A program made the translations under genes and the position numbers. Shown in pieces: positions 31,717 through 61,250 of a stretch of 64,000 bases of DNA. Each line of letters opens with the position of its first letter. Within the stretch, counting starts at the first letter, position 1. This stretch comes from a virus: positions 1-64,000 of the IMG/VR virus record IMGVR_UViG_3300048839_000424; one strand, written 5' to 3'. The notes under the pieces were generated by a model. The model saw only the letters and a list, made by a program, of their open reading frames with translations, was not told the origin of the DNA and ran no database searches.

Positions 31717-33247
31717 AAAAGTCCACCACGGATTGCAAGCAAGAAAAGGGCTACTGAAAGGTGCCCTTGATTTGTCACGTCTCGTAGGGGTTACATACGG
31801 CCCCTACGGTCGTAATGTCGTTCTTGACCGTCCCGTAGGGATTCTATCTACCAAGGATGGCGTCACCGTTGCTTGGGAATACGAACCTCAAGACCCGGTA
31901 GAACGCATGGGAGTTCGAATCGTACAGGAGGCGTGCTCGAAAGTCTCCAAGTCCGCTGGAGATGGGACAACAAGTACGGCGGTTCTGATCGGAGCTATCT
32001 TGCGAGAAGCCCATAAATGGGTCGTGGCAGGAAAAGACCCTATGCTCATCGCTCAAGAGATGCAGACGTTCGTGCAGGAGAGCCTGGAGGAGATGTTGAA
32101 TCTCTGGAAACGTGATGTAAGCACGGACACGGACCTACTAACCGTTGCATTAAGAGCCTGTAACGGAGATAGGGAACTAGCAACGGCGTTGGTTCAGGTC
32201 ATGGGCAAGATCGGAACGAAAGGCGTCGTTGTTCTGGAAGAAGGAAAATCCCGAGAGATCGAGATGGTTTTCAAGCAAGGGTTAGAAACTGACAGAGGTT
32301 GGGAGAGTTCGGATTTTTGTCCCTCGGATGACAGTAAGGTGTTTTTCGAGTTGCCCTTGGTCGCTCTGGTAGATGACGTGTTGGAGAAAGCCGAGCAGGT
32401 AGTTCCTATCCTCGAAGAAGCCTCCCAGTTTCCGCATCCTTTGGTGATCGTGTCCAAGGGCATGTACGGGGATGCGTTGAAAACACTCCTCATGAACCAA
32501 GAAACGGTGAAGTCCTGTGGGGTTCGTTGCATGGGACATCATGAGTTCATGAGAACACATTTAGAGGATTTAGCGGCGATATCGGGAGCAACCGTGTGGG
32601 CTAAAGAGTTGGGGGAATATAAGGCGGAGTATCTAGGTTCTGTTCAAACGGTCACGGTCAAGAAGGAGTCCTCGACATTCGTTGCTTTCCCTGATAAAAA
32701 TGAGCAAGTAGCGATGAGAATCCGTCAACTGGAGAATCAACTCGTAAGCACGGAGAGTGTTTTCGAGCAAGATAAGCTCAAGGAGAGAATCGCCAAACTT
32801 TCGGATGGGTTTTGTCTTTTGAGAGTCGGTGGGGATACGGAGTTAGAGATCAAAGAACGTCGTGGAAGATTGGAGGATGCTTTGTTTTCCATGAGATTAG
32901 CGGTAGAGCATGGGGTGGTTCCGGGGGGTGGGCTTACCTTTTTCAAGGTTGGTCAGTTGTTGGAGGATGCGGATAGCATTGGAGAGCGGATACTATCTGT
33001 GGCTTTGAAGGAACCATTCCGCAAGATTTACAGTAATGGTGGTAAGAGTCCTCGCGTGTTAGAGGCTCAAATGGAGTATGTTCCAGTAGACTCTTGGGTA
33101 GGGTATACTCTTGATGGGATACGGGATGTGTCTCAAGGTAAGGGATTGTTAGATTCGGCATCCTCTGTGTTAGAGGTGATTCGAGTTTCTGTTTCGACCG
33201 CGAGTACTATTCTTACCTCAGAGGTTTCGATTACGAGTATCAAATGA
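31694..33247 (+). CDS. groEL: Phage-encoded GroEL-like chaperonin
   Basis: TYGPYGRNV, TKDGVTVA, AGDGTTS, KLKERIAKL, RLEDAL and GVVPGGG motifs; divergent, lacks the GGM tail. Confidence 0.93.
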   Translation: MAKKTTSKKVHHGLQARKGLLKGALDLSRLVGVTYGPYGRNVVLDRPVGILSTKDGVTVAWEYEPQDPVERMGVRIVQEACSKVSKSAGDGTTSTAVLIGAILREAHKWVVAGKDPMLIAQEMQTFVQESLEEMLNLWKRDVSTDTDLLTVALRACNGDRELATALVQVMGKIGTKGVVVLEEGKSREIEMVFKQGLETDRGWESSDFCPSDDSKVFFELPLVALVDDVLEKAEQVVPILEEASQFPHPLVIVSKGMYGDALKTLLMNQETVKSCGVRCMGHHEFMRTHLEDLAAISGATVWAKELGEYKAEYLGSVQTVTVKKESSTFVAFPDKNEQVAMRIRQLENQLVSTESVFEQDKLKERIAKLSDGFCLLRVGGDTELEIKERRGRLEDALFSMRLAVEHGVVPGGGLTFFKVGQLLEDADSIGERILSVALKEPFRKIYSNGGKSPRVLEAQMEYVPVDSWVGYTLDGIRDVSQGKGLLDSASSVLEVIRVSVSTASTILTSEVSITSIK

Positions 33248-34297
33248 GTGACAAATACAAAATCATACACGGAAATATGCTTGAAGTGTTGAAAACACTT
33301 CAAGAAAATAGCATCGACGCCATCGTTTGTGATCCACCCTATGAAATCAATTTCATGGGCCGAGGTTGGGACAAATCCGGCATCGCATTCCAAAAAGAAA
33401 CATGGGCTGAATGTTTAAGAGTATTGAAGCCGGGAGGCTATTTAGTAGCATTTGGAGCGGCGCGAACGATGCATCGCATCACATGCGCGATTGAGGATGC
33501 CGGTTTCGAAATTCGAGACACGTTGCAGTGGGTTTTTGGAAATGGGTTTCCCAAGTCGCTGGACGTTGGTAAAGCTATTGCGAAACGTGCAGGCGGCGAA
33601 ATCGAAGCGCGTGCAGCTATCGAGTGGATGAAGCGCGAACGGGAGAGGTTGGGTCTTTCCCGTGCAGCTCTTGAAGTCCGCATTTTCGGGCGCTGTGATG
33701 GCAACGTGAGGAACTGGGAGGACGCCATTTCGCTACCAAGGCCGGGGCTTTGGCCGCAGATTCGCGCGGCACTCGGGCACGGTGCGACGCTGTTCGACGC
33801 TGTGATGGAGAGGGGTGACGAAAAGGTAGGTGAGACAACCGGATCTTATGGGTATCAAGCTGACGGGTCTAGGTGGAAAAAGCCACGCGAGTTGCGAGAG
33901 CCGAACACAGAAGCAGCGAAAACCTGGCACGGCTACGGCACCGCACTAAAACCAGCGCACGAGCCGATCACGCTGGCCCGAAAGCCCTTACAGGGCACGG
34001 TCGCCGCGAACGTGGCGAAGTGGGGAACGGGCGGGATTGACGTTGACGGGTGTCGGGTCGGGGAGAGCAAGCGCGTGCCTGGTAACGCTAGCTGTGCTAG
34101 CGAGTATAAAGTGGGGCACATCGCAGAGGGTCACTACCTCAAGGGGCTAAGGTATCTAGCGGAAGGTGAGAGTTCCGGTAACGGTCCCAACGTAGGCCGC
34201 TGGCCGCCGAACCTCATCATCGACGACGGCGCGGGCGAGGATCGCCCATGCTGAGGGAGAGATTTCGTTAGAGGATTTGAATGAGTTATTCGGATGA
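33244..34297 (+). pseudogene. Beta-class DNA amino-methyltransferase with XRE-HTH insertion, internally deleted and frameshifted
   Basis: ORF 33244..34254 has DPPY, GFPKS, GTALKPAHEPI and GRWPPNL but no FxGxG; the C-terminus ARARIAHAEGEISLEDLNELFG* continues in the +1 frame at 34229-34297. Confidence 0.75.
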
Positions 34298-34590
34298 GGA
34301 TTGTATCAGTGATAAGGAAGCCCTTTGAGGGATCGACAACGCAAAACGTGTTGGTTCATCATGTCTCGTGTATCAACATTGACGGGACCACCCATCAAAC
34401 TCACGGTGCGGGAAGCAACGGGATTTATGGGAAGTATGCTGCCATTCAAAGCAACAAAACACGAGGACAGGAACTTGGCCGTTGGCCAGCAAACTTGATT
34501 TTGAGCTACCCAGAGGGTGTTGAGACATTGAATCAACAAACAGGGTTGGAGTACAATGGGGCAAGGTTCTTCAGGAATGTTCTGCTATGA
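34294..34590 (+). CDS. Stand-alone MTase middle module (copy 1)
   Basis: MRIVSVIRKPFEGS..INIDG..GRWPANLIL..GARFF, homologous to the internal segment of 33244 and to 44433..45041; ATGA overlaps at both ends. Confidence 0.7.
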   Translation: MRIVSVIRKPFEGSTTQNVLVHHVSCINIDGTTHQTHGAGSNGIYGKYAAIQSNKTRGQELGRWPANLILSYPEGVETLNQQTGLEYNGARFFRNVLL

Positions 34591-35405
34591 AACGACTAGA
34601 TCTAGTTCACTACCGCAAGGGGTCACTAACCTCCGACACGGTTGAAGCCCTCCGTCATTTGGAACTTCGTACCGCCAAAGCTGATAAGAGCTTTGTTCTT
34701 CATGTCTCATCCCGTGGGTTGGAATCCATGAAATGGGGTGAGGTTAGAGAAAACCCTGGTCCTACAGGATGCCGACCTGAATGGTCTGCGGTTCCTACGG
34801 GACGAGAGATTTACCTCCGATTGGAAATCAACGACGACCAAGGACACCCAGACTCAAAGCGAGAAAGAGAACTTGCCTTGCTCTGGGGGTTGGCAATCCC
34901 TCTTGGTTTTACCCCGTGGGTTCGTTACCCCCTCCCTGGTCCCGGTGATGATGTGTTTCACTACTATGGACCGTGGAGATCGTTGATGGACAGTTTGATG
35001 GGAATGGGTCGTGGTGAGGAAGCATGGCCAAGTTTCTGTTGTGCAGCACAGGTTGATGTCGGTGCTTGGGAGGGGAATAGACCTACCGAGCGATTTGTTC
35101 AAGCGCAGTTACACCGTATGGGATACAATCATGGTCCCGTAGATGGAATGGTTGGACCTCGAACAGAGACGGCTCTCAAGGGGGCTGGATTGCATGGGTT
35201 GGCCTTATCAGAGGCGGCAAAAAAACTCACCTCTCTGGAGTCTAAACCAGCCCAGCGGACGAAAAAAAGGAAGGGGCATATCGTTCTCCCGGAGACTAAT
35301 TTCTCTATAACTTCCTATGGACAGGTGAGAACAATCCAAACGGCTCAGGGGGCTGCGGTCGAACTAGATGGCCCTGGTCGGATTATCATCACCACGCAGG
35401 AATAA
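34587..35405 (+). CDS. Peptidoglycan-binding domain protein
   Basis: FVQAQLHRMGYNHGPVDGMVGPRTETAL matches the PG_binding_1 pattern. Confidence 0.7.
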   Translation: MKRLDLVHYRKGSLTSDTVEALRHLELRTAKADKSFVLHVSSRGLESMKWGEVRENPGPTGCRPEWSAVPTGREIYLRLEINDDQGHPDSKRERELALLWGLAIPLGFTPWVRYPLPGPGDDVFHYYGPWRSLMDSLMGMGRGEEAWPSFCCAAQVDVGAWEGNRPTERFVQAQLHRMGYNHGPVDGMVGPRTETALKGAGLHGLALSEAAKKLTSLESKPAQRTKKRKGHIVLPETNFSITSYGQVRTIQTAQGAAVELDGPGRIIITTQE

Positions 35406-36046
35406 TGACGAGATTACACGAAAAGGTCGCATGGGCATGGTTAGACCGATTGCTCGGAAAGAAGGTCGTTGAGCCATCTCCCTCCGTGAACTCTGATTTG
35501 TCTGATGCACAGAAAAAAGCGATCATTGATGACTCGTACCAGAGGATCAAAAAAGACCTCCTTGCGGCTCTGAAAAACGGTCATGCGGAGATTTTTCAAC
35601 AAGCGGAGAGAGCGGGTCGTAGGTGGGGAGTACAACCATTGTTTCTCCTCTATTTCCTCGCTGAAGGAAAAAACTGGCCATCACGTCTTGATGCTACGGT
35701 GAAGGAAAAGCTGCGACTACTTCAGGCTCTTTTACTGAACTTTGGCGTGGCGGAGTTCTATCCGAACGAGATGGGGGAGTTCCCTGATTGGGACAGATTG
35801 ACTTCAGCCATGATGGAGATGGGGACATATGGGTGGGGTGTTGTGGTCTGGAAGATTATCGTCCCGAGCTTTAATGCGGCGGTGAGTCGTGAGGCAAAGC
35901 GGGTGCTTCATATCTTCAAAAGACCGGGGGGTTCTAAAAACCCGGACGCTTTTTGGTATCTCTCCAAGTACTTCCAGAAGTCCTGGTGGCACGATAACAT
36001 CCCCTACAAGCATATCATCCTGATGCTGACTAAAGAACTGTTCTGA
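35405..36046 (+). CDS. Hypothetical protein
   Basis: 213-aa ORF, AGGA RBS, TAATG overlap with the upstream gene. Confidence 0.6.
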   Translation: MTRLHEKVAWAWLDRLLGKKVVEPSPSVNSDLSDAQKKAIIDDSYQRIKKDLLAALKNGHAEIFQQAERAGRRWGVQPLFLLYFLAEGKNWPSRLDATVKEKLRLLQALLLNFGVAEFYPNEMGEFPDWDRLTSAMMEMGTYGWGVVVWKIIVPSFNAAVSREAKRVLHIFKRPGGSKNPDAFWYLSKYFQKSWWHDNIPYKHIILMLTKELF

Positions 36047-36066
36047 AGGCGTATAATGCCTGACGT

Positions 36067-39000
36067 ATGGATGAGGCATTAAAAGTAGCGTATGAGAAAT
36101 TGAAAGAGATCCGGGGTCGCAAGGATCTCGCCCTCAAACCCAACAAGTACCTCAAGGACACCTTTACGGGATTTGATGGGCAGGAGTATCCGTTCAAGCT
36201 ACGGTACTACCAAGTCCAAGGGGTTCTTCACATGGTTGTGATGAATCGTTTTCTTCTTGGGGACGACACCGGCACAGGAAAGTGCCAGCCGTATGATTCT
36301 CTTGTTCTGACTGACAGGGGTCTCCTAAAGATGGGGGAAATCGAAGATTGGTCAGACATGACACCTGATAGCTTTCGCCCTATGAGCAAAAGCCTTCATG
36401 TGTTAGTAGATGGGGAAAAACTCCCCATCAAGAGCTTTTACTATGGTGGGGTCAAGTCTACGGTTACGGTCCATACTAGGTATGGGTTTAAAAACACTGG
36501 GTCACAAGTTCACCCAATGTTAGTTCTTCGGGATGGTTCCCATCAATGGGTGCAGGCTAAAGATCTGATTGAGGGGGACTATCTTTGTATTGAGAGACGT
36601 GAGATGTCCTTCCCCGAGAGTGAGCCCAAGCTAATCGGGAAAGGCCCCTTGGAAGAGGTAACACCTGATTTTGCTCGATTTGTGGGTTACTACATTGGAC
36701 GAGGTACTCTAATAGCTAGAGACCAGATAAGTGTCTCCCAGTACCCAGTGAACCCCCCCGAGGTGCTTGCAGACATTATCCGTGTTATGGGTTCAGTTTT
36801 CAATAAGGTTCCCTCACATCTTAAGGGAATAGACTTGAGTGTCTGTGACACGAGAGCACGACGGTGGTTGGTTGAAAATGGTATGGGTTATCTGAAATCT
36901 GCATACCGAGACATTCCTGACTGTATTCTCCAGGCTTCAAAAACTAGCACTCAAGAGTTTTTACGAGCCTTTTTTGAGGGAGCGGGGCACGTGGATAAGT
37001 CCATCGAACTTACCACCACATCAAAAACACTAGGGGAGCAGCTACAAGTCCTACTCCTGAGATTTGGTGTAGTAGCTAAGAGAGAAAAGGTCTATAGTCA
37101 AGGGGTCTATGGTCAAGAGGGTCATGTTTATTGGCGCCTGACTATATGTGATAGAGAAGCCGAAATCTTTCGTGACCAGATTGGGTTTGTGTCCTCTCGA
37201 AAAAAGGAGGCTTTAAATGCACTCGTCGATTGCAGTACGCCTCTTTTGAACACGTCGTATTTTTACGACCCTGTTGTAGAGATAGAACAAGGGGAAGAAG
37301 AGGTTTTTGACATTGAAGTGGATGACCCTCGTCATTGTTTCGTCAGCAATGGGTTTGTCAATCACAATACTGCGATGGCTATTTCATCCTATGCCTACGT
37401 CTTAGACAAAGAGCCGAATACGAAAGCAGTAGTGCTTACGAACAAGTCCGTGGTTGGTCAATGGGCCTTGGAATTCGAGAAGTTCACGAAACCGGGGATG
37501 ATTCGAGTCATCCAAGTAAGTGGAACCCCAAAGAAGCGGGAAGCCGCTTATGAGGAGTTCAAGAATAGTCAAGGTCCAACCGTGATGATCATGGGATATG
37601 CGACTGCGCGACAGGATGTCAAACAGCTTCAAACCATCAAGGACTACATTTTGATCACGGACGAAGCGAGTGCCTACAAGAACCCTTCCTCCCAGATTCA
37701 CCAAGTCGTTCGGTTCATGGCGAATCAACAGGCGAAGCGCGTCTGGGCTCTCACAGCAACCCTGATCAAGAACAATCTAGTCGAGGGGTATGGGATCTAT
37801 TCAGTCCTGTGTCCGGGATTGTTCCCCCCAACGAAAAATGCGTTCATCAACTCGTATGCAATCACGAGGATGCAGAAAATCGCGGGCTCTAATCGCCAAG
37901 TCCCGGTCATTGTAGGATATCGGAAGGACCACATTGAGAACTTCCGTAACAAAATTGACCCCTTCTTCCTGTCTCGGTCCAAGATGGACGTGGCTTCGGA
38001 ACTTCCCGTGTTGACGATTAGGGAGGACAAGGTAGCGTTGACGCCCGAGCAACAGACGAAATACCAGGAGGCTTTGGATGGTCTCCTAGAGATTGATACG
38101 ACGGGTGAACAGAAGGAGACGACAAAACTCACGAGTCTAATCTACTGCCAACAAATCGTAGACCACCCGGACTTGATTGACTGTGAGGGGGGCTCGTACA
38201 AGATGGACCACTTGTTCGACATTCTCACGGAGGGCGATTTGGCAGGTGAGAAGGTCATTGTGTTCTCGCGGTTCCGCAAGATGATCGACCTCCTGGAGAA
38301 AGAGGCGAAGAAAAAGAAGATCACATCGGTGAGAATCACTGGTGCTGAAACCAAGGAGGAGGTGCGAAAGGAAGCGATGCAAAAGTTCCAGGATCCAAAC
38401 TCTGATGTTCAGGTCTGCTTTATTACTACAGCGGCAGCAGAGGGAATTAACCTCCAAGCGGCGAAAGCCATCGTTTTCTTCGACTCTCCTTGGTCCGCTG
38501 GAGATTACCTTCAGTGTTTAGATGAGGATACAGAAATATTGACTCAAAGAGGTTTTGTGGGTCGTACCTCTATTAAAGAGGATGATTTAGTTGCTGCAAT
38601 GAACACTCAAACCTCTGAAATTGAATGGCAGCCGATTCGTTCTATTACTGATCGTCCACGAGCGCAAGACGAACAAATGTATGAAGTCTCTACGAGACAT
38701 GTAAATATACGTGTCACAGGTGGACATCGTATGTTGTATAGAAGAAAAACGCTTAGAAACAACGTAGCGGTTTGGCCTATGGGGTGGGAAATTGAAACCG
38801 CTGAACAAATGGCAGTAGAGAAAACTCATTATCAAATCCCTGCCGCTGGTGAACAAAATTCAAAGGGGTTACCTCTCACTCAAGATCAACTTGAGTTTAT
38901 AGGTTGGTTCTTGTCTGACGGTTCCCTTAACAAATCAAACCATCAATTGGTAATTTCGCAAGCAATACATCAACCTCAGATTGTAGATTTACGGCGATGC

Positions 39001-39822
39001 ATTGAAAATTGTGGGTTTGATTGGAGCGAGTACAACCGAGATCCCAAAATGACTAAAGGATTTCCAAATGGTAAACCTCAAATAGTCTTCTCTATCCCCA
39101 AAGGAACACAAAACGGCACTCGTGCAAGGAAAGGATGGAAAGAACTAGAACCTTACCTTGACAAAGAGTTGTCACCCTTGTTAGAGGATGTAACCCCCGA
39201 ACAATTAAGTGCCCTGCTCCGAGGGTTGCATCTAGGGGATGGGAGTAAATATAGAGGTGACAAGTGGAATCAAGCCTCTTATCACATTTTCACTGGAAGA
39301 AAGGTTTTTGCCGAAAGACTACAGAGCTTGTGTGTTAGACGCGGTTTTCGTTGTAATCTCTCTATTCGACAGGCTGCACCTGGAAGAAAAGAAGGGTACA
39401 CACTACATATAAAAAAGACTAATGCGTGGTCTCTATGTGGAAATAAAAAAATGATAGGGCGCTCTCATATGTCCCCTTCCAAAAACATAGAACATGAGAG
39501 AGTATGGTGTGTTGAAAATGATTTGGGTACGCTCGTAACACGTCGTCGTGGAAAAGTAGCTGTTGTAGGAAATTGTATTGGGCGAATGATTCGCATTGGA
39601 AGTCAGCATGATCGTTGCTATGCGATTCACTTGGTCGCTTCGGGTACGATTGATGAGGATGTCATTGTGACCTTGAAGAAGAAGATGAAACTCGTAGAGA
39701 AAATCATGGGCAAGAGGTTGAAGGGTGAGAAGGATCAGGATGCCGTCATCGAGGCGGAAAACGACATCTCTGACCTATTTGATTCCGTCCGTGCGAATGC
39801 TCGAACTCGTAAGTACAAGTGA
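36067..39822 (+). CDS. SNF2-family (SF2) helicase/ATPase containing two inteins
   Basis: LRYYQ, LGDDTGTGK|T (motif I), DEAS (II), LTAT (III), KVIVFS (IV), AEGINLQ (V), Q|CIGRMIRIG (VI); spliced product about 536 aa. Confidence 0.93.
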   Translation: MDEALKVAYEKLKEIRGRKDLALKPNKYLKDTFTGFDGQEYPFKLRYYQVQGVLHMVVMNRFLLGDDTGTGKCQPYDSLVLTDRGLLKMGEIEDWSDMTPDSFRPMSKSLHVLVDGEKLPIKSFYYGGVKSTVTVHTRYGFKNTGSQVHPMLVLRDGSHQWVQAKDLIEGDYLCIERREMSFPESEPKLIGKGPLEEVTPDFARFVGYYIGRGTLIARDQISVSQYPVNPPEVLADIIRVMGSVFNKVPSHLKGIDLSVCDTRARRWLVENGMGYLKSAYRDIPDCILQASKTSTQEFLRAFFEGAGHVDKSIELTTTSKTLGEQLQVLLLRFGVVAKREKVYSQGVYGQEGHVYWRLTICDREAEIFRDQIGFVSSRKKEALNALVDCSTPLLNTSYFYDPVVEIEQGEEEVFDIEVDDPRHCFVSNGFVNHNTAMAISSYAYVLDKEPNTKAVVLTNKSVVGQWALEFEKFTKPGMIRVIQVSGTPKKREAAYEEFKNSQGPTVMIMGYATARQDVKQLQTIKDYILITDEASAYKNPSSQIHQVVRFMANQQAKRVWALTATLIKNNLVEGYGIYSVLCPGLFPPTKNAFINSYAITRMQKIAGSNRQVPVIVGYRKDHIENFRNKIDPFFLSRSKMDVASELPVLTIREDKVALTPEQQTKYQEALDGLLEIDTTGEQKETTKLTSLIYCQQIVDHPDLIDCEGGSYKMDHLFDILTEGDLAGEKVIVFSRFRKMIDLLEKEAKKKKITSVRITGAETKEEVRKEAMQKFQDPNSDVQVCFITTAAAEGINLQAAKAIVFFDSPWSAGDYLQCLDEDTEILTQRGFVGRTSIKEDDLVAAMNTQTSEIEWQPIRSITDRPRAQDEQMYEVSTRHVNIRVTGGHRMLYRRKTLRNNVAVWPMGWEIETAEQMAVEKTHYQIPAAGEQNSKGLPLTQDQLEFIGWFLSDGSLNKSNHQLVISQAIHQPQIVDLRRCIENCGFDWSEYNRDPKMTKGFPNGKPQIVFSIPKGTQNGTRARKGWKELEPYLDKELSPLLEDVTPEQLSALLRGLHLGDGSKYRGDKWNQASYHIFTGRKVFAERLQSLCVRRGFRCNLSIRQAAPGRKEGYTLHIKKTNAWSLCGNKKMIGRSHMSPSKNIEHERVWCVENDLGTLVTRRRGKVAVVGNCIGRMIRIGSQHDRCYAIHLVASGTIDEDVIVTLKKKMKLVEKIMGKRLKGEKDQDAVIEAENDISDLFDSVRANARTRKYK
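36283..37368 (+). mobile_element. Intein 1 (362 aa) in helicase Walker A, degenerate LAGLIDADG endonuclease
   Basis: CQPYDSLV...GFVNHN|T; endonuclease blocks FVGYYIGRG and FLRAFFEGAG lack the usual acidic residues. Confidence 0.9.
38515..39573 (+). mobile_element. Intein 2 (353 aa) in helicase motif VI, with LAGLIDADG endonuclease
   Basis: CLDEDTEILT...VTGGHR...VVGN|C; FIGWFLSDG and LLRGLHLGDG; AT-richer than the flanks. Confidence 0.9.
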
Positions 39823-39838
39823 AGGGAGTATAAGGAGA

Positions 39839-40711
39839 ATGAGTAGGAACCCCTTTGCGGACCCCGCTTGTCCGAAATGTCACGGGCGTGGGTTTATTTA
39901 TGCCGAGTCCATGTTAGATGGTGGGCGCTATTGTGAGTGTACGATGGAGGGGATGCGAGTCCAAAATATGACTCGCATCTGGGAATCCTTGGAATCAGCC
40001 AAGGAGATCTCGGTGTTGCGGAACGACCCCCCGCTCAAGAGATTCCTCAAAAAGTCCTGTCGAATCACGGCGCCCGTAGCTCTCTTTAAGGCTCATTTGA
40101 AGGCATTGGCGTACAATATGCCTACGGCATGGAATGCTCGTGTCCATACGGATGCAGAACTCCTAGACGTATGGTTTGGCACCCTGAAGGCACAGGGGAT
40201 GAAAATATACGACTTCGAGATTGAAAACTCGACGTTGAGGGCTATTGACATTCGAGACCTCGTAGAGCCCCATGACCTTTGCATCATCCTCATGGGGGTC
40301 AAGAAACTTCCCAACAAGGAGGCGCCATCGAGCTTAGCGGAGGCGATTTCTTACCGGAACCACTTGGACAAACCCACTTGGGTGATCGACCAACCGGACT
40401 TACCTTTGGATGGTAATCACAGATATCACAATCAGGAAGTCGAACGCATGTTGGCGAAATGGCCGCATGTAGTTCTCTCCGGCCCGAATGTAACGGTGAC
40501 CAACGAACCACGTACAAACTCTCCGGTGGCAACAAATGCTCTAGCGACCGTAGATGACCTACTGGTAACCGAGGATGGGCTTCAAGAGGAAGAAGAGGAG
40601 CTATTCGAGGAGGACGTAGTTTCTGCCCCTCAAACGAAGAATTTGCTTTCGACATTGACGGTAGAATCGAAGTCCAAGAAGCCCTGGAAAGGGAATAGGC
40701 CCAAGCGATGA
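39839..40711 (+). CDS. DnaC/DnaI-like helicase loader with Zn finger, degenerate ATPase
   Basis: Likely start ATG 39839 after AAGGAG; CPKCHGRG...CEC Zn site, DLCIIL and ISYRNHLDKPTWV (DnaC-like); no Walker A; directly upstream of DnaB. Confidence 0.55.
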   Translation: MSRNPFADPACPKCHGRGFIYAESMLDGGRYCECTMEGMRVQNMTRIWESLESAKEISVLRNDPPLKRFLKKSCRITAPVALFKAHLKALAYNMPTAWNARVHTDAELLDVWFGTLKAQGMKIYDFEIENSTLRAIDIRDLVEPHDLCIILMGVKKLPNKEAPSSLAEAISYRNHLDKPTWVIDQPDLPLDGNHRYHNQEVERMLAKWPHVVLSGPNVTVTNEPRTNSPVATNALATVDDLLVTEDGLQEEEEELFEEDVVSAPQTKNLLSTLTVESKSKKPWKGNRPKR

Positions 40712-42273
40712 AGATTTTACTTCGATCCGTATTCATTGTCAATGCGAGTGACAGTGAGCAGTTGTTTCTCCAGAATTACCATGCCTTGGTTGAGTCCGGG
40801 CTTGGTTTTGACATGCTGGAGGACATCAATATTTGGAAGTTCATTCAGGATTTCTATCAGGGGCATGGTCACCTGCCTACACTCCAGACGATTCGTTCTC
40901 ACTTCGAGCGCGTTCAGGAGCTAGAAGTTGTTGACCGTCTTGAACGCTTGGCGATGGAGTCCCCGAAAACTCGTGGTGACTTTATTTCGTTCTTGGAGAC
41001 TCAGGCGGAAGACCGTCGTGTCAAAATCGTCATGGAACTTGCCAAGGAAATGGCGACCATCGCCCAAACGGGTATCGACGTAAAGGACAAGGGCGGGAAG
41101 AACTCCAAGAAGTTCCTTGGGGCCGTAGATGCCATCCGGTGGGTTCTCGATCGTTCGCATGAGCTAGTCTCTCCGACGCTGGGAAGTCGTCTCTCCGGCA
41201 ATGTGGCGACCGATGGGGAGACCTTCATCACCCGGTATGAGCGCGTCAAATCGGACCCACAGTTTGGGATTGGGTGTTATACGGGGATTCGACAGGTAGA
41301 CGATGCCTTGAAAGGGGCAAAGCGGTACGAGCTTTGGATTCACGCAGGATTCACGGGTTCGTTGAAGTCTAGTCTTGCTCTCCAGTGGGCCTACAATCAA
41401 ATGGTCTACTACCGCAATTCGACCCTGTATTTTTCGTTGGAGATGCCTTACATTCAGTGCATGAACATGCTCTATGCGATGCACACGGCACATGAAAAGT
41501 TCGCACAGATTCGAGCGCAGTTGGGGATTCAAGATATCGGGCTCGACTACGAGCGGATGAAAAATGGTGTCCTAGCTCCCCATGAGGAGAAGTTCCTGTT
41601 CGATTACGTAGTTCCCGATTTCAACAAAAAATCCACGGTACCGGCGACGGGTCCATATCCCGTAGAGGCTCATGAGTATGGGGATATCTACATCGAGGTT
41701 GCTGACCCTGACAAAACGGACTTCACGGTTTTGGAGCTACGAGCCAAGGCGGAGTTGATTTATTCCAAAACGCCGTTCAAGATGGTCGTGGTGGACCATG
41801 TGGGTTTGATGTCACCACGGGAGCGATATGGGTCTACTACGGAGAAGATCAATGAGGTAGTTCGAGACTTGAAAAAACTAGCCATGAGTTTCAACCGGGG
41901 TATGGGTATTGCGGTCGTTGGGTTGGCTCAGTTATCTCGTGAGGGGTATCGAGCCGCTGAAAAGAACGGTGGTAAGTACAACTTGACTCACTTGAGTTAT
42001 GCCAACGAGATTGAGCGTTCCGCTGACATTGTGACGGCGACTTGGATTGATGATGACCTGAAAAAAATCAACCGTGGTATTATTCAGTGTTTGAAGTCTC
42101 GTGACCAGGCACCATTTGAACGATGCCCTCTTCGGGTAGAGTTCTCATGTCGTCGAATCACAACGGACAATACGTCCATTGATGAGATTGAGAACAAAAT
42201 TCAAGCAAAGCGGGGGGACATAGACAAGATCAAACCCCACAAGTCGAAAGTACCTGACCTTGGAGACATATGA
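40708..42273 (+). CDS. dnaB: DnaB-like replicative helicase
   Basis: AGFTGSLKS (variant Walker A), FSLEMP, VVDHVGLM, LAQLSR, EIERSADIV, KSRD. Confidence 0.9.
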   Translation: MKILLRSVFIVNASDSEQLFLQNYHALVESGLGFDMLEDINIWKFIQDFYQGHGHLPTLQTIRSHFERVQELEVVDRLERLAMESPKTRGDFISFLETQAEDRRVKIVMELAKEMATIAQTGIDVKDKGGKNSKKFLGAVDAIRWVLDRSHELVSPTLGSRLSGNVATDGETFITRYERVKSDPQFGIGCYTGIRQVDDALKGAKRYELWIHAGFTGSLKSSLALQWAYNQMVYYRNSTLYFSLEMPYIQCMNMLYAMHTAHEKFAQIRAQLGIQDIGLDYERMKNGVLAPHEEKFLFDYVVPDFNKKSTVPATGPYPVEAHEYGDIYIEVADPDKTDFTVLELRAKAELIYSKTPFKMVVVDHVGLMSPRERYGSTTEKINEVVRDLKKLAMSFNRGMGIAVVGLAQLSREGYRAAEKNGGKYNLTHLSYANEIERSADIVTATWIDDDLKKINRGIIQCLKSRDQAPFERCPLRVEFSCRRITTDNTSIDEIENKIQAKRGDIDKIKPHKSKVPDLGDI

Positions 42274-42875
42274 ACCTGACATTAAAACACGGTGATTGCG
42301 TAGAGCGATTGAAAGAAATCGAGTCGAACTCCGTAGATGCGGTCATTTGCGATCCGCCCTATGATATCGCGTTCATGTCTCGAAAATGGGATGATGAGAA
42401 CACGTTGACGAACGAGGCGATCTGGCGCGAGTGTTACCGGATTTTGAAGCCAGGGGGTGAGATTCAAGCCTTTGCGGCAACAAGAACCTTTCATCGGTTA
42501 GCGAGGACGTTCAAGAACATTGGGTTTGAGGGTATGCGATTAAAAGCCTTCACCTATGGGAGTGGATTTCCGAAATCTACGAATATATCGAAGCAGATTG
42601 ACAAACGAGCCAAGGCGGAGAGGAAGGTCGTGGGGTTCAAAAAAGGGGTTGGTGGTCAGAACTTGAATGACCTCGTGAACAACCGGGATGAGATCCGTAG
42701 TACGGATCAGGAAGGTGGTAAGGGGGTTGGAGCGTATGGGACGGGAGCGAAGCAAGTCGCAGTAGATGTACCTATCACGGAACCAGCGACACCGGAAGCC
42801 AAGCTCTGGGACGGGTATGGTACAGCCTTGAAGCCCGCATGGGAACCTATTGTCGTGGCCAAGAAACCTCTGTGA
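42270..42875 (+). CDS. Beta-class MTase N-terminal (catalytic DPPY) half
   Basis: HGDC, VICDPPY, ILKPGG, GSGFPKS, ends GTALKPAWEPIVVAKKPL*; no SAM-binding motif; GGAG RBS and ATGA overlap with dnaB. Confidence 0.8.
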   Translation: MNLTLKHGDCVERLKEIESNSVDAVICDPPYDIAFMSRKWDDENTLTNEAIWRECYRILKPGGEIQAFAATRTFHRLARTFKNIGFEGMRLKAFTYGSGFPKSTNISKQIDKRAKAERKVVGFKKGVGGQNLNDLVNNRDEIRSTDQEGGKGVGAYGTGAKQVAVDVPITEPATPEAKLWDGYGTALKPAWEPIVVAKKPL

Positions 42876-42887
42876 GTGATATAAAAA

Positions 42888-43958
42888 ATGAGCGAGAATA
42901 ATATAAAATCCCCATTCCCATATTTCGGCGGTAAGAGATTGATTGTAGATATGGTTTGGCAGCGCCTCGGAAAGCCAAAACAGTACATTGAACCATTCTG
43001 CGGAAGCGCGGCTATGCTGCTCGGTGCTCCGTCTCCGGCATCTCTGGAGGTGATCTGCGACGGGTCCGGGTTCATTGCAAATTTTTGGCGCGCAGCAAAG
43101 CACCAGCCCGCCGCTGTTGCTGAACATGCCGATTACATTGTAAGCCACATCGACCTCGGAGCGCGGCATCGGTGGCTGATGGATCAGCGCGACCGCATCG
43201 GAGAAATCTTGCAAGACCCCGATCACCCAGGCGATGCGAAGGTCGCGGGGTGGTGGCTATGGGGCCAGTGTTTATGGATCGGTAGTGGCTGGTGCGATTG
43301 GGACAAGACGGGACAGATCCCGCACGTCAGCGACGCCGGGAGGGGCGTGCAGGCGATCGGCAAGATCCCGCACGTCAGCGACGCCGGGTGTGGCGTGCAG
43401 GCGATCGGCCAGATCCCGCACGTCAGCGACGCCGGGAGGGGCGTGCAGGCGATCGGCAAGATCCCGCACGTCAGCGACGCCGGGTGTGGCGTGCAGGCGA
43501 TCGGCCAGATCCCGCACGTCAGCGACGCCGGGATGGGCGGCCTCATGACCAGTTCGGGCCGCGCCGCGTGGGTCGCCCTGCACGCACTCGCGGACAGGCT
43601 GGAGCGATGCCGGGTCATTCACGGAGACTGGTCGCGCGCTATGAATCACCATTATGGCGGGAACAACACAGCGGTGTTCCTTGACCCGCCATATGTCGCA
43701 TATGAGAATCTCTACGGCGTAAAACATCCGGTAGCACTTGATGTCGCAGAGTGGGCCAGGAAGCACGCTCATCTTCGCGTTGCTCTGTGCGGGCACATCG
43801 GAGACTACGAAATGCCGGGGTGGGACGCCGTGCCGTGGGAAAGGTCGCGATTGACATACGGCGGGGCATCGACCAAGGCGAGCGAGTGCATATGGTTCTC
43901 ACCTGCATGTTTTCCACCACCAGATGAATCGAAGGATTTGAACGAGTTATTCGGATGA
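42888..43958 (+). CDS. Dam/D12-class N6-adenine DNA methyltransferase with tandem repeats
   Basis: SPFPYFGGKR, YIEPFCGSAA (motif I), FLDPPY (motif IV): alpha-class order; ends DLNELFG. Confidence 0.88.
   Translation: MSENNIKSPFPYFGGKRLIVDMVWQRLGKPKQYIEPFCGSAAMLLGAPSPASLEVICDGSGFIANFWRAAKHQPAAVAEHADYIVSHIDLGARHRWLMDQRDRIGEILQDPDHPGDAKVAGWWLWGQCLWIGSGWCDWDKTGQIPHVSDAGRGVQAIGKIPHVSDAGCGVQAIGQIPHVSDAGRGVQAIGKIPHVSDAGCGVQAIGQIPHVSDAGMGGLMTSSGRAAWVALHALADRLERCRVIHGDWSRAMNHHYGGNNTAVFLDPPYVAYENLYGVKHPVALDVAEWARKHAHLRVALCGHIGDYEMPGWDAVPWERSRLTYGGASTKASECIWFSPACFPPPDESKDLNELFG
43311..43532 (+). repeat. In-frame 48-bp tandem repeat, 4.6 copies, alternating A-B-A-B-A'
   Basis: Encodes G(Q/K)IPHVSDAG(R/C)GVQAI; units start at 43311, 43359, 43407, 43455 and 43503. 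Confidence 0.95.
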
Positions 43959-43986
43959 TTCTCATCCGTAATCCATTAGGGGGTCC

Positions 43987-44436
43987 GTGACTTCCGAGTT
44001 GCTGATTTGTATAGGAGGAATTAGAACTCCTCCTGTGGATGTGGAATCCTTGGTCAAATGTCTTGGAGTATCTGTAATTTACAAGGACAGTGTAGAGGTT
44101 TCACGACTAGAGGTTAATGGTAACCAGGCTACTATTGTTGTGAACTCAAATGCTTCCAAGCAACGCCAGAGATTTGCTTTAGCGCATGAACTTGGGCATT
44201 TGTTGAGACATGACCTTACGAAACCAACATGCCATTATGATTTCAGAGGGCATGCTGCGATAGAGCGAGAGGCTAATATTTTTGCAGCCTCTCTTCTTAT
44301 GCCAAGGTCTATGCTGGGGTTGTATCTTGGGTACACAAGCCTTGATCTCGACCAGATCGGCCGGGTTTTTGATGTACCACGAACTACTTGTGAGTACCGA
44401 GTAGCGCACTTTCTCCGTGGGTATCGTGATTTATGA
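43987..44436 (+). CDS. ImmA/IrrE-family Zn metallopeptidase
   Basis: PPVDV, RQRFALAHELGH (HExxH), EREANIFAASLLMP. Confidence 0.9.
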   Translation: MTSELLICIGGIRTPPVDVESLVKCLGVSVIYKDSVEVSRLEVNGNQATIVVNSNASKQRQRFALAHELGHLLRHDLTKPTCHYDFRGHAAIEREANIFAASLLMPRSMLGLYLGYTSLDLDQIGRVFDVPRTTCEYRVAHFLRGYRDL

Positions 44437-45041
44437 GAGTAGTATCAGTGATAAGGAAGCCCTTTGAAGGGTCTGCGACTCAAAACATCGTAATCAATGA
44501 ATGTGGTGGGTTGAACATTGATGCCACTCGCATTGGAGGAGAACCTTCACCGTCAGTAGATAGACGTAAATATTCTCCAAAAGAGTGCGTTGGCGCTACA
44601 GGATGGACAACGCCAGCACGTCCAGCATCGTACAATGAACAACGCGCAGGTGAGCAGAGTGGCCGATGGCCAGCGAATCTGATGTTAGTACATACGCCTT
44701 TGTGTGTCTTTGAGGGTCATGTAAAGCAGAAGGGGTACATGATTAATCGTTGGACTGACGGTGCGAAACCTTTCGGTGGGGGAGCGGGACATGACTATGC
44801 GGGACAGCAGCAAAACGATCTGAATGTAGAGTCGTGGAAATGTCATCCGACTTGTCCTGTTTCCCATATGGACTCTCAAAGTGGTGTTTCTAAATCCTCC
44901 GGTGGAAGAATAGGTAACGCTCAGGGGGTATACTCGAACCAAGGTCGCACTGGATGGGGTACAGGACATCAAGCGGGAGACCCTGGGTACGGAGATAGTG
45001 GTGGTGCATCACGGTATTTCAAGCAGGTAAGGAGCAAATAA
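44433..45041 (+). CDS. Stand-alone MTase middle module (copy 2)
   Basis: MRVVSVIRKPFEGS, GGLNIDATRI, GRWPANLML, CHPTCPV, YGDSGGASRYF. Confidence 0.75.
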   Translation: MRVVSVIRKPFEGSATQNIVINECGGLNIDATRIGGEPSPSVDRRKYSPKECVGATGWTTPARPASYNEQRAGEQSGRWPANLMLVHTPLCVFEGHVKQKGYMINRWTDGAKPFGGGAGHDYAGQQQNDLNVESWKCHPTCPVSHMDSQSGVSKSSGGRIGNAQGVYSNQGRTGWGTGHQAGDPGYGDSGGASRYFKQVRSK

Positions 45042-45938
45042 ATGTCACAAGAACCGGAAGAACTAAAATCCTATCTCCAACGCTTGATCTCCCCACCGGA
45101 ACAAGTTGGCCCTATCGTCATCGTCGAGGACGACCTCTCCCAAGTGGACTTTGCCTCCTATGCGGATTCCTCAGTCCACGGATTGATCACAAAGGGGAAC
45201 CCAGAGAAGTATTTCGACGAAATCGACCGTATTCTGCGTCCCGGTGCCCACATTCTCCTGATCTCGGAGCAAGATGACATCAACTTCGAGGGCACTTGTG
45301 CTTTGGAGGATAGGGGGTACGAAGTCCGTGACAGCATTTGCCTCTTGGACTCTCCAGCGGATGAGTTCCTGTACACGACGAAAGCCTCCAAGTCTGAAAG
45401 GAACGCAGGTGTTCCTGAATACACCAATACAGTAGAACAAGCCGTGATTAAAGACGGTCTATCTGATGACCTCTATGCCGATATTCTCTTCCACTTGGAG
45501 GAAAATGGGTTCGATTCCAGTAGCGAGGATGCCTACAAGTCTCTGAAGGGGAAGAAAATCGACCTGAAGCTCATTAGCAAGGAGTACTTGGAGCACTTCG
45601 ACATTGTAAATACGGTGACTCAAGTCGTGCAGAATAATCACCCAACGGTCAAACCGATCTCTATTATGGAATTCTTGATGCAAGACTTGCCCCAGGGGGG
45701 TATTGTTGTAGACCCTTTCATGGGGTCTGGGACAACGGGTATTGCTTGTGTCAGAACGAACCATCAATTCGTTGGAATTGAGCGCGAGGCGGAGTATATT
45801 CGTATTGCTGATGCTAGAGTTCGGCATTTCATTGCCGAGAAGCTAGATTCGGTTGTCTTTGGTATAGTTTCGGAGGCACCCGCATCGCCATCCCCCATGT
45901 CTCAAATCGAGGATGACCTGAATGAGTTATTCGGATGA
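45042..45938 (+). CDS. Beta-class MTase SAM-binding half with degenerate catalytic region (no DPPY)
   Basis: Own AAGGAG RBS; KASKSER, NHPTVKP, DPFMGSGTTG, FVGIE; LITKGNP stands where IVCDPPY is expected; ends DLNELFG. Confidence 0.8.
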   Translation: MSQEPEELKSYLQRLISPPEQVGPIVIVEDDLSQVDFASYADSSVHGLITKGNPEKYFDEIDRILRPGAHILLISEQDDINFEGTCALEDRGYEVRDSICLLDSPADEFLYTTKASKSERNAGVPEYTNTVEQAVIKDGLSDDLYADILFHLEENGFDSSSEDAYKSLKGKKIDLKLISKEYLEHFDIVNTVTQVVQNNHPTVKPISIMEFLMQDLPQGGIVVDPFMGSGTTGIACVRTNHQFVGIEREAEYIRIADARVRHFIAEKLDSVVFGIVSEAPASPSPMSQIEDDLNELFG

Positions 45939-46489
45939 GAAAATCTATGAGAGAACCCACGACAGTACCAAGAGTCATTGCATTGACTGGACCCTTGGGC
46001 GTAGACAAAACTTCTGTTGCGAAGGCTTTACAGGGTCTACTGAAATCTAAGGGCAAAGAAACTGTGCTTGAGTCATTCACTGCACCTGTCCATGCGATTT
46101 TGTCCTCTTTGAACCTAGAGAATAATTGGGAGGTGAAGAAAGCAGTAATCGCTGCAATTCAAAAAAGCATGGGTTCTTGGGCATTGAATACTGCTCTGGA
46201 GAACAGGCTAACAGAAGATGGTGGGTTTAGTCTACACTTGATGCCAGGAGTCCTTCTCGACGATCTTCGCACGTATGAAGAGACGGAGTGGGTAAGGGAG
46301 TACCACGGTGCTATTGTGGAGATCACACACGAGGGTATCGAATACTCCGAAGATTGTGACCCAAATCAGTTTAACTTCGGTCAGACTTTTCAAGGTAGTG
46401 TAGATGCCACTGGGAAAACACCAAAGGAAGTAGCCTTAGAGGTGTTTGATTTGGTCAAGAGACGGGATTACTTGGTCAAGAGAATATGA
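45935..46489 (+). CDS. dNMP kinase-like P-loop protein
   Basis: IALTGPLGVDKT (variant P-loop), SFTAPV, LLDDLRTYEE, similar to phage deoxynucleoside monophosphate kinases. Confidence 0.55.
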   Translation: MRKSMREPTTVPRVIALTGPLGVDKTSVAKALQGLLKSKGKETVLESFTAPVHAILSSLNLENNWEVKKAVIAAIQKSMGSWALNTALENRLTEDGGFSLHLMPGVLLDDLRTYEETEWVREYHGAIVEITHEGIEYSEDCDPNQFNFGQTFQGSVDATGKTPKEVALEVFDLVKRRDYLVKRI

Positions 46490-46496
46490 GGTACCA

Positions 46497-46835: not shown

Positions 46836-46848
46836 GGGGGTAGAGCTT

Positions 46849-60825: not shown

Positions 60826-61250
60826 AGACTCAGTACACATTCGTGATTTCCGGGGGTGATCCTTTGACGTTACAGTTGAGGGGGTGTCCACCTATGCGAT
60901 ATGAGGGTCCGGGGTCTACGGTGTTCCATGTCATTTGCACGCGGGAGGAAGCTCTTCATGTTGAGATGACTTTCAAGGAAGCCCACTGCAAGGTCGTTGT
61001 CCATACGCATGGGGAGACGGTCGAGCAGAAACAAATGAGGGTCAATCTTCTTGCATTACAGGGGGAGAACAGTTTTCCGACGAAAGACTGTCCCTCTTGC
61101 CCTTGGTTTGATCCCGAGATTTCAGGTCTCTGTGGGGCTGGTAAGACTGGGAGTGAGCAATACTCCGAAGCTGTGATTAAACATCAAATGAAGTCGGAGC
61201 GATTTAAGGACGCCTACAACAACTGCACATGGGACACGAAATCAAACTGA
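60822..61250 (+). CDS. Hypothetical Cys-containing protein
   Basis: 142 aa, ATGA overlap, CPSCPW..C motif. Confidence 0.55.
   Translation: MKTQYTFVISGGDPLTLQLRGCPPMRYEGPGSTVFHVICTREEALHVEMTFKEAHCKVVVHTHGETVEQKQMRVNLLALQGENSFPTKDCPSCPWFDPEISGLCGAGKTGSEQYSEAVIKHQMKSERFKDAYNNCTWDTKSN

What the first reader, a model, noticed from the sequence alone, without database searches (positions are those of the whole stretch)
34274..45938. Shared C-terminal peptide tag DLNELFG on methyltransferases of different classes
Seen: GAT TTG AAT GAG TTA TTC GGA TGA (34274-34297), GAT TTG AAC GAG TTA TTC GGA TGA (43935-43958) and GAC CTG AAT GAG TTA TTC GGA TGA (45915-45938). All three differences are synonymous. 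The tag ends an alpha-class (Dam-like) gene and two beta-class genes after short acidic or Pro-containing linkers, and the intact MTase at 61229 ends with the similar SVFDLFGDE. Established: the T4 gp43 C-terminus (SLDFLFG) and bacterial QL(S/D)LF peptides bind sliding clamps. Inference: a portable docking tag that recruits all phage MTases to one hub (clamp/replisome or a replication compartment) so nascent DNA is methylated at once. The invariant DNA could also act as a recombination and ATGA-coupling junction for cassette exchange.
Basis: partly seen in the sequence, partly recalled or inferred. Interest (0 to 1): 0.8.

Follow-up and report, generated by a model that had tools for sequence, protein, structure and literature searches.

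The report
Clamp-docking-like tails on phage methyltransferases
A very large uncultured phage puts the same seven-residue tail (DLNELFG) on unrelated DNA methyltransferases. The tail looks like the peptide that replication proteins use to hold the DNA sliding clamp, so new phage DNA is probably methylated at the replication fork, though binding has not been shown.

Summary
The three DLNELFG-TGA copies are real (0 expected by chance), but only two end a gene. The copy at 34274 is out of frame behind a methyltransferase (MTase) gene that lost about 150 codons. A relative's intact protein ends ...AEGELSLEDLNELFG, so this copy is a relic.

The tail is not just local DNA copying. Hundreds of relatives of all four MTase families in the window end, after variable linkers, in [Q/L/I/V]-x-[D/S]-[L/M/F]-F-[G/A]. 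This is the register of the bacterial clamp-binding motif QL[S/D]LF and of Pol III alpha's QxD[LM]FG. It occurs in 56-75% of two families, against about 3% of neighbouring non-MTase genes.

The tail type follows the genome, not the family. The inserted Dam-like MTase and the deleted beta-class MTase come from Gln-type families, yet both carry the resident Leu-type tail, on a 26-nt patch with shared rare codons.

The 78-kb contig holds no clamp gene, but a syntenic clade member encodes a very divergent DnaN-fold clamp. Binding is untested.

I found no paper on clamp motifs in bacterial or phage DNA MTases. This scan has noted the same phenomenon on at least eight other genomes.

The parts
33244..34254 (+). 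Truncated beta-class MTase gene (P0001). It has DPPY at residue 30 and the RKP...NID...RWPPN module, but no HPTVKP or FxGSG SAM-binding part.
   Evidence: 85% identical over residues 1-99 to P0254 (586 aa), which continues for about 170 more residues.
34229..34297 (+). Out-of-frame relic of the original C-terminus (reads ARARIAHAEGEISLEDLNELFG* in the +1 frame). The deletion joint lies in the 12-nt overlap 34229-34240.
   Evidence: P0254 ends ...ARARIAHAEGELSLEDLNELFG. In a freshwater run, one contig follows the window up to 34240 and then continues as the intact gene; another joins the window from 34229.
34274..34297 (+). Tag copy 1 (DLNELFG + TGA). Not translated as part of the upstream ORF. 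Its ATGA starts the next ORF.
34294..34590 (+). 98-aa remnant (P0008) of the N-terminal module of a second P0139-type MTase gene (starts MRIVSVIRKPFEGS).
   Evidence: Its first 54 nt are 83% identical to 44433-44486. The relative in run X1 has 27 more nt after 34380.
42270..42875 (+). Short DPPY-bearing MTase piece (P0005, piece 'A'). It ends at ...KPAWEPIVVAKKPL and has no tail.
   Evidence: The same short ORF, ending at the same motif, follows DnaB in clade members G001-G003.
42888..43958 (+). Intact Dam-like (D12, alpha-class) MTase (P0002) ending in tag copy 2. It is absent at this position in clade members G001-G003.
   Evidence: Not present between A and B/C in G001-G003.
43935..43958 (+). 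Tag copy 2 (DLNELFG + TGA), in frame after the linker FPPPDESK.
43987..44436 (+). M78 / IrrE-like peptidase gene lying between tag 2 and the B piece.
44433..45041 (+). Piece 'B' (P0006): the RKP...NID...RWPAN...RYF module. It forms the N-terminal ~200 residues of the fused protein in relatives.
45042..45938 (+). Piece 'C' (P0003): MTase-like, with FMGSG and HPTVKP, but GNPEKY in place of DPPY. It ends in tag copy 3. It is separated from B by an in-frame TAA, with AAGGAG upstream of the ATG.
45915..45938 (+). Tag copy 3 (DLNELFG + TGA), after the linker EAPASPSPMSQIED. Its ATGA starts the next ORF, 45935-46489.
61229..62032 (+). Intact beta-class N4/N6 MTase (P0004).
   Evidence: AF2 model: pLDDT mostly above 90 for residues 1-243 apart from one loop (41-52), and a beta-class MTase fold.
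62003..62032 (+). Variant tail SVFDLFGDE + stop on P0004, behind a disordered linker (residues 244-258, pLDDT < 50).
   Evidence: Family tails such as GGI[LF]D[LM]FG[DE].

Best explanation
DLNELFG, and its variant VFDLFG on the fourth MTase, is a short linear docking motif on a flexible C-terminal tether. It is of the same type as sliding-clamp-binding peptides. It most likely inserts its Leu-Phe pair into the hydrophobic cleft of a beta-type sliding clamp. The clamp could be the host's DnaN or a divergent phage-encoded DnaN-like clamp of the kind found in a clade member. MTases would then ride on clamps left on newly replicated DNA and methylate it at once, as DNMT1 does on PCNA.

Within this phage the tail behaves as a transferable module. 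A 26-nt patch encoding it is shared by an acquired Dam-like gene, by the SAM-binding piece of a split beta-class MTase, and by the relic 3' end of a third MTase gene.

Shown: the motif, its conservation, its position, its disorder, its register match to known clamp peptides, and the DNA-level sharing. Inferred: the partner and the biological consequence.
For: 1. The motif is an island of conservation after variable linkers in four unrelated MTase families.
- Dam-like relatives: 15/15 aligned tails, with Q 80% at -4, L 80% at -1, F, then A/G.
- P0001 family: 48/149, Q 58% at -4.
- P0003 family: 101/120, with L 77%, D 74%, L/F/M, F, G 75%.
- P0004 family: 93/120, with I/V 77%, D 52%, F, G 41%.

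2. Enrichment. The regex [LIVMFQ]xx[LIMF]F in the last 12 residues hits 56% and 75% of two families, against 0.5-3% of interior windows. Across about 100 loci it hits 29/113 MTases and 29/977 other ORFs (odds ratio 11, p = 2e-15).

3. The register equals the published clamp motif QL[S/D]LF (PMC9690074) and the Pol III alpha context IGQLDLFGV / IGQFDLFGV. T4 gp43 ends SLDFLFG, with the same L-x-x-L-F-G spacing as the tag. Polyangiaceae DnaE carries GQATMFG / GQTTLFG.

4. Some relatives have QLGLGL, QLGLL or QRRLSLVLP in the same position. By my own knowledge (Pol IV QLVLGL, Hda QLSLPL) this resembles the alternative hexapeptide form of the clamp motif.

5. AF2 of P0004: folded domain 1-243, linker 244-258 with pLDDT < 50, and a tail that is not packed.

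6. The tail follows the genome, not the family. The window's Dam-like gene and the P0254-type gene come from Gln(-4) families but carry the Leu(-4) tail native to the P0003 family. Compare LDDLNDLFG and LDDLDGLFG in that family.

7. All three nucleotide differences between copies are synonymous. Only 11 of 63 possible single changes are, so 0.175^3 is about 0.005 (my arithmetic on the codons listed).

8. A syntenic clade member (G003) encodes a 381-aa protein whose model matches DnaN clamps at Foldseek E 1e-18, TM about 0.6-0.67.

9. A second small phage contig (L018) has two unrelated MTases with Qxx[LM]FG tails.
Against: - No binding measurement or complex model was possible.
- The tag has Leu, not Gln, at -4 and Glu, not Asp/Ser, at -2, so it is not a textbook beta-clamp motif.
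- No DnaN, gp45 or PCNA gene was found in the 78-kb contig. None was found in G001, G002 or G004 either. The contig is only about 15% of the genome.
- The phage's family-A polymerase, DnaB, ligase and SNF2 helicase do not carry the tail. So no known clamp client in this genome shares the peptide.
- Many family members have no tail.
- One tagged protein (P0003) belongs to a family without a canonical catalytic motif.
Confidence: 0.6

Rival explanations
1. The tail docks the MTases on another shared hub rather than a clamp. Candidates are the phage family-A polymerase, the DnaB helicase or an SSB. The mode would resemble the acidic, Phe-terminated tails of T7 gp2.5 and gp4 that bind T7 DNA polymerase (my own knowledge). 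A phage-specific scaffold or compartment protein is another option.
For: The replisome in the window is PolA + DnaB + primase-like + NAD ligase, with no clamp or clamp loader seen. The linkers are acidic and the tail ends near the C-terminus. The tag lacks the Gln of the canonical beta-clamp motif.
Against: The number of residues after the Phe varies from 0 to 12, so a free C-terminal Phe carboxylate is not required. Two of the four families carry the canonical Q-x-x-L-F, and some relatives carry hexapeptide-like QLxLxL tails; both point specifically to beta clamps. The same tails occur on MTases of small phage contigs such as L018. A clade member has a DnaN-fold clamp.
Confidence: 0.2
2. Within this genome the repeat is mainly a DNA-level feature. 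It would be a 26-nt recombination or translational-coupling junction (…GGATGA) left by cassette shuffling among MTase genes, with no role for the peptide.
For: The three copies share the same codon at 4 of 7 sites, including the rarest Leu codon TTA (8% usage) and GGA. P for at least 4 such sites is about 0.02, and copies 1 and 2 share 6 of 7 codons (P = 0.012). One copy is untranslated yet intact. Similarity starts and ends sharply at the tag. Two of three ATGA overlaps start the next ORF. The Dam-like + M78 block is an insertion relative to clade members.
Against: The peptide motif is conserved in hundreds of relatives with unrelated DNA. No other IMG/VR contig has the DNA pattern in frame. 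All differences between copies are synonymous. ATGA overlaps are common in this genome (16 of 65 genes), so the junction is not special. Shared ancestry of the DNA explains how the tail spread, not why it is kept.
Confidence: 0.1
3. The tail is a degradation or turnover signal (a C-terminal degron for a host or phage protease), or an intramolecular regulatory element of the MTases.
For: C-terminal hydrophobic tags can be degrons (my own knowledge). An M78 peptidase gene lies inside the MTase cluster.
Against: No resemblance to known C-terminal degrons was found. The motif tolerates 0-12 residues after the Phe. The AF2 model does not dock the tail on the catalytic domain. The M78 gene is absent at this position in clade members that keep the tails.
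Confidence: 0.05

Closest known systems
Bacterial beta-clamp-binding motif clients (QL[S/D]LF; Pol III alpha internal motif QxD[LM]FG; Pol II, Pol IV, MutS, Hda)
   Same: A five-residue register [Q/aliphatic]-x-[D/S]-[L/M]-F, often followed by Gly. It sits on a flexible terminal segment and forms an island of conservation. Two of the four MTase families have the canonical Gln.
   Different: The clients here are DNA MTases. I found no paper reporting these as beta-clamp clients in bacteria or phages. The window's tag has Leu at -4 and Glu at -2. Binding is untested.
C-terminal gp45-binding peptide of T4 DNA polymerase gp43 (…SLDFLFG)
   Same: Identical spacing and ending, L-x-x-L-F-G-stop, at the extreme C-terminus of a phage protein.
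   Different: No gp45-family clamp was detected. The phage polymerase is family A and lacks the tail. The only clamp seen in the clade has a DnaN fold.
DNMT1 PCNA-binding domain in animals
   Same: The proposed logic is the same: a maintenance-type DNA MTase tethered to the replication clamp so that nascent DNA is methylated (PMC9690074; bioRxiv 354589).
   Different: A different motif (PIP box Qxx[I/L]xxFF), a different clamp, an N-terminal location and an unrelated MTase class. This is analogy only.
Phage Mu late activator MuC, which uses the host beta clamp through a clamp-binding motif
   Same: A phage protein other than a polymerase that carries a clamp-binding motif and depends on the clamp (bioRxiv 2025.01.04.631326).
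   Different: MuC is a transcription factor, and its motif and clamp dependence were tested experimentally. Here nothing has been tested.

Membership tests
Beta-clamp-binding motif (CBM) clients | Pentapeptide matching QL[S/D]LF (Gln at 1, aliphatic at 4, Phe at 5) | tested here: inconclusive
   The tag is L-N-E-L-F, so positions 4-5 fit, position 1 is Leu and position 3 is Glu. The variant tail V-F-D-L-F fits at positions 3-5. Family profiles: Q 80% and Q 58% at position 1 in two families, L 77% and I/V 77% in the other two. Motif definition from PMC9690074.
Beta-clamp-binding motif (CBM) clients | Motif lies in a flexible, exposed terminal or linker segment | tested here: met
   AF2 of P0004: linker 244-258 has pLDDT < 50 and the tail is not packed. 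Linkers vary in length and sequence among relatives.
Beta-clamp-binding motif (CBM) clients | Motif conserved among orthologues while flanks diverge | tested here: met
   Enrichment against controls.
Beta-clamp-binding motif (CBM) clients | A beta-type clamp is available in the same cell | tested here: inconclusive
   None in the 78-kb contig. Syntenic clade member G003 encodes a DnaN-fold protein. A bacterial host necessarily has DnaN, but the host is not identified. Myxococcota is a lead (and note e1-6075617).
Beta-clamp-binding motif (CBM) clients | [quoted passage not shown] | not testable with these tools
   No multimer prediction or experiment was available.
T4-type gp45-binding C-terminal peptides | Extreme C-terminal L-x-x-L-F-G-type peptide | tested here: met
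   T4 gp43 ends SLDFLFG. The tags end DLNELFG.
T4-type gp45-binding C-terminal peptides | gp45-family trimeric clamp encoded by the phage, and the polymerase carrying the same tail | tested here: not met
   PF02916 has no match in G000-G004. PolA ends ...HGLLG and clade PolAs also lack the tail. Caveat: the contig is about 15% of the genome.
PCNA PIP-box clients (DNMT1-like) | Qxx[I/L]xxFF motif and a PCNA clamp | tested here: not met
   The tails do not fit a PIP box. PF00705 has no match.

The most novel reading that the evidence does not exclude
Each huge-phage lineage may have its own clamp-docking 'dialect', matched to a divergent phage-encoded DnaN-like clamp. MTase genes acquired from other phages would be re-tailed by a short DNA patch to speak it. 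Here a Gln-type Dam-like enzyme would have been converted to the resident Leu-type DLNELFG. In the split beta-class enzyme the tail sits on the SAM-binding piece, which lacks a catalytic DPPY, while the DPPY piece has no tail. The clamp would then be the platform on which a multi-piece MTase is assembled at the fork.
Probability: 0.25. Interest if true: 0.75.

Novelty: new member of a known kind. Interest (0 to 1): 0.6.

Why it matters
Coupling of DNA methylation to replication through the sliding clamp is textbook for animals (DNMT1-PCNA). I found no description of it for bacteria or phages in the searched literature.

If phage MTases ride on clamps, that would explain how phages methylate hundreds of kilobases of new DNA fast enough to escape restriction. 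It would add a large class of clients to the clamp interactome. It would also give a simple sequence marker ([Q/aliphatic]xx[LM]FG at the C-terminus) for finding replisome-coupled DNA-modifying enzymes.

This window adds two specific points. The tail type follows the genome rather than the enzyme family. And it can be moved between genes as a 26-nt patch.

Tried and rejected
- IMG/VR scan for the exact DLNELFG-TGA DNA pattern. The only hit was a chance out-of-frame match inside an RNA-virus-like polyprotein.
- blastn of 42000-47000 against cultured phages found nothing. tblastn of P0004 and P0002 against cultured phages gave only relatives at 35% identity or less, too distant to inform on tails.
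- Programmed frameshift at 34252 was rejected. Even read through, the product would lack the SAM-binding half. A relative protein and contigs from a freshwater run show a plain internal deletion.
- Searches for DnaN, gp45 and PCNA families, and for the G003 clamp profile, in G000, G001 and G002 were negative. All are partial genomes, so this is not evidence of absence.
- PHROGs on ten unannotated ORFs gave no hits.
- The search for related loci with alignment A2 failed for lack of a conserved stretch.
So the neighbourhood of P0254, and the pairing of MTases on the same contigs, could not be checked directly.
- The sequencing-run search gave one freshwater run with a small share of words (0.09). 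I used it only for the deletion joint, not for habitat.
- Five literature searches for clamp-binding motifs on bacterial or phage DNA MTases found none.


Full report
**1. Observation**

The degenerate pattern for DLNELFG matches three places on the + strand of the window: 34274, 43935 and 45915. None were expected in 100 dinucleotide-preserving shuffles. The same three are the only copies in the whole 78,215-b IMG/VR record, which CheckV rates as about 15% complete. A six-frame scan finds only one further C-terminal [DE]LF[GD] tail, SVFDLFGDE at the end of 61229-62032. Shared DNA is limited to 26 nt, AGGATTTGAATGAGTTATTCGGATGA, at 88-96% identity. There is no similarity upstream.

**2. What the tags sit on**

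Copies 2 and 3 end real ORFs.
- 42888-43958 (P0002) is a D12/Dam-like MTase with an N-terminal FGG motif and DPPY at residue 266.
- 45042-45938 (P0003) has a PF01555 domain with FMGSG and HPTVKP.

Copy 1 does not end an ORF. ORF 33244-34254 stops at TGA 34252, and the tag lies in the +1 frame, where the reading is ...ARARIAHAEGEISLEDLNELFG*.

A search of 1.8 billion cluster representatives found P0254 (586 aa). It is 85% identical to P0001 over the first 99 residues and near-identical over the RKP...NID...RWPPN module. It continues through HPTVKP and FCGSG and ends ...ARARIAHAEGELSLEDLNELFG. Contigs from one freshwater run support this. One follows the window to 34240 and then continues as the intact gene. 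Another joins the window from 34229 and runs through the tag into the next ORF.

So gene 33244 suffered an internal, frame-shifting deletion between 12-nt microhomologies, and tag 1 is a relic. The ORF behind it (34294-34590) is a decayed N-terminal fragment of another MTase gene.

**3. Clade context**

The window encodes a GroEL-like chaperonin, an intein-bearing SNF2 helicase, DnaB, an NAD ligase and a family-A polymerase with inteins. Three IMG/VR records are syntenic with it: G001 (213 kb), G002 (116 kb) and G003 (289 kb).

In all three, DnaB is followed by a short DPPY-bearing ORF that ends at ...KPA[WF]EP...KP. This is the counterpart of 42270-42875 and has no tail. Next comes a long protein equal to 44433-45041 plus 45042-45938 fused, ending LEDLFGG, FGGMFGG or DLNSFLGF.

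In the window the fused gene is cut by an in-frame TAA, with AAGGAG upstream of the following ATG. The Dam-like gene plus an M78 peptidase gene sit between the short ORF and the long one. This insertion is not seen in the relatives.

**4. The tail is a conserved motif, not just local copying**

- Relatives of the Dam-like MTase at 53-68% identity in IMG/VR end, after variable linkers, in QLGLFA, QTDLFADLGGGS, QTALFG, QQGLFGGVA, QRKLFGDAA, QIDMFAEVA and similar tails.
- The best 120 homologues of P0004 end in ...GGI[LF]D[LM]FG[DE], ILSFF, IFDLL and the like.
- The best 120 homologues of P0003 end in ...SLDDLFG[FLM], SLMDFFGI, GGLFDMFGED, and also LDDLNDLFG and LDDLDGLFG.
- In the P0001 family about a third of tails carry an [LIMF]F pair, and 28 of 149 carry Qxx[LM]F, for example QPTLF, QLDLFGTA and QVSLFGAAS.

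Anchored on the Phe, the four families share one register:

| Position | Residues |
|---|---|
| -4 | Q (80% and 58%) or L / I/V (77% and 77%) |
| -2 | D/S |
| -1 | L/M/F |
| 0 | F |
| +1 | G/A |

Between 0 and 12 residues follow the Phe.

Controls:
- The regex hits 56% and 75% of two families, against 0.5-3% of interior windows.
- Across about 100 loci it hits 29/113 MTase ORFs and 29/977 other ORFs (odds ratio 11, p = 2e-15).
- In species-representative cellular genomes, distant homologues (27-33% identity) of P0004 almost never have a tail.
- The closest cellular homologues (44-48% identity), mostly from Myxococcota, often end QLGLGLE, QLGLL, QLGLSV or QRRLSLVLP.

**5. Resemblance to clamp peptides**

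The published bacterial motif is QL[S/D]LF (PMC9690074). In the Pol III alpha context the consensus peptide is IGQLDLFGV (PMC11703123), and IGQFDLFGV is also in use (PMC7530888). Polyangiaceae DnaE reads GQATMFG / GQTTLFG at the corresponding place. T4 gp43 ends ...KASLDFLFG, with the same L-x-x-L-F-G-stop as the tag. The QLxLxL-like tails of the Myxococcota relatives resemble the hexapeptide form of the motif; that comparison rests on my own knowledge.

The AF2 model of P0004 has a confident beta-class MTase domain (residues 1-243). It also has a disordered linker (244-258, pLDDT < 50) and an unpacked tail. These are the properties of a tethered short linear motif.

**6. DNA-level sharing**

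Given this genome's codon usage, two independent encodings of DLNELFG should share about 3 of 7 codons. Copies 1 and 2 share 6 (P = 0.012). All three share 4, including TTA (8% of Leu codons) and GGA (P about 0.02). So the copies have common DNA ancestry.

Yet the three differences are all synonymous, including TTG to CTG. Only 11 of 63 possible single changes would be synonymous. This indicates selection on the peptide.

The window's Dam-like enzyme and the P0254-type enzyme belong to families where Gln dominates at -4 and Leu is under 7%. Both nevertheless carry the Leu-type tail native to the P0003 family. Since the Dam-like gene is an insertion, the simplest reading is that an acquired enzyme received the resident tail.

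**7. Partner**

No DnaN, gp45 or PCNA family hit was found in G000, G001, G002 or G004. PolA, DnaB, ligase and SNF2 lack the tail in the window and its relatives.

G003 has a 381-aa ORF with a sub-threshold DnaN N-domain hit. With eight homologues it folds (mean pLDDT 71, pTM 0.66) into a three-domain protein. All its top PDB matches are DnaN clamps (E 1e-18, TM 0.6-0.67, about 13% identity). A profile of it finds nothing in the partial G000-G002.

So a divergent phage clamp exists in the clade, but its presence in this phage is unknown. The host clamp is always available. The host may be a myxobacterium (note e1-6075617, not verified here).

**8. Literature and earlier notes**

Five full-text searches found no report of clamp-binding motifs on bacterial or phage DNA MTases. 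The closest are DNMT1-PCNA and phage Mu MuC with the beta clamp. This scan's own notes list at least eight other genomes with 'clamp-docking tails on phage DNA methyltransferases'. Those are unverified AI notes and I did not use them as evidence.

**9. Verdict**

The clamp-docking reading is the best supported (about 0.6) and remains an inference. Tail swapping at the DNA level is also supported. This is a new client class of a known motif type. It is noteworthy mainly for three things: the genome-specific tail type, the re-tailing of an acquired enzyme, and the tail's placement on one piece of a split MTase.

Noticed in passing
window 43263-43550: Five tandem 48-nt repeats inside the Dam-like MTase encode IPHVSDAG(R/C/M)GVQAIG(K/Q). 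Relatives carry about one to six copies of the same 16-residue unit, so this is a family feature with variable copy number. It may be a DNA-contacting repeat region.
   Followed up: partly
window 42270-42875, 44433-45041, 45042-45938: This looks like a naturally split beta-class MTase: a short DPPY piece, an RKP-NID-RWPAN piece, and a SAM-binding piece. The split after ...EPxxxxKP is conserved in three syntenic huge-phage records. The last two pieces are fused in relatives but separated here by an in-frame TAA followed directly by ATG.
   Followed up: partly
window 45042-45938 and its 120 homologues: The P0003 family has G[NTDS]P[ET]x in place of the catalytic (D/N/S)PP(Y/F/W). Only 1 of 120 homologues has a canonical motif. 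It may be a non-catalytic partner subunit, yet it has the most consistently conserved tail.
   Followed up: partly
L299:1501-2646 (G003:C1:230438-231583): A 381-aa protein of a syntenic 289-kb phage is invisible to Pfam thresholds, but its model matches bacterial DnaN clamps (Foldseek E 1e-18). It lies next to a PD-(D/E)XK nuclease and an SMC_N-like ORF. Only eight homologues were found among 5.8 billion proteins.
   Followed up: yes
window 36067-39822 and 53680-58452: The SNF2 helicase carries an intein with a LAGLIDADG domain. The family-A DNA polymerase carries intein/Hint segments at more than one site. The relative P0254 seems to have an insertion (residues ~100-246) in its MTase where P0001 has none.
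   Followed up: no
window 43959-44436: The M78/IrrE-like peptidase gene is flanked by ATGA on both sides, and its 3' end (GATTTATGA) resembles the start and end of the tag. It looks like a cassette inserted at the tag-ATGA junction.
   Followed up: no
L296-L298 (Polyangiaceae DnaE loci): Besides the internal GQ(A/T)T(M/L)FG motif, these Pol III alpha subunits have LGGLER(M/V)FG about 10 residues from the C-terminus. This is a Leu(-4)-x-x-M-F-G peptide of the same type as the window's tag.
   Followed up: no
L018:2095-2952 and L018:3983-4960: A small viral contig has two unrelated MTases side by side, one beta-class and one Dam-like. Both end in Qxx[LM]FG (QVPMFGVK and QRKLFGDAA).
   Followed up: partly
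window 31694-33247: A GroEL/Cpn60-family chaperonin gene lies just upstream of the MTase relic. It is conserved in all three syntenic records.
   Followed up: no
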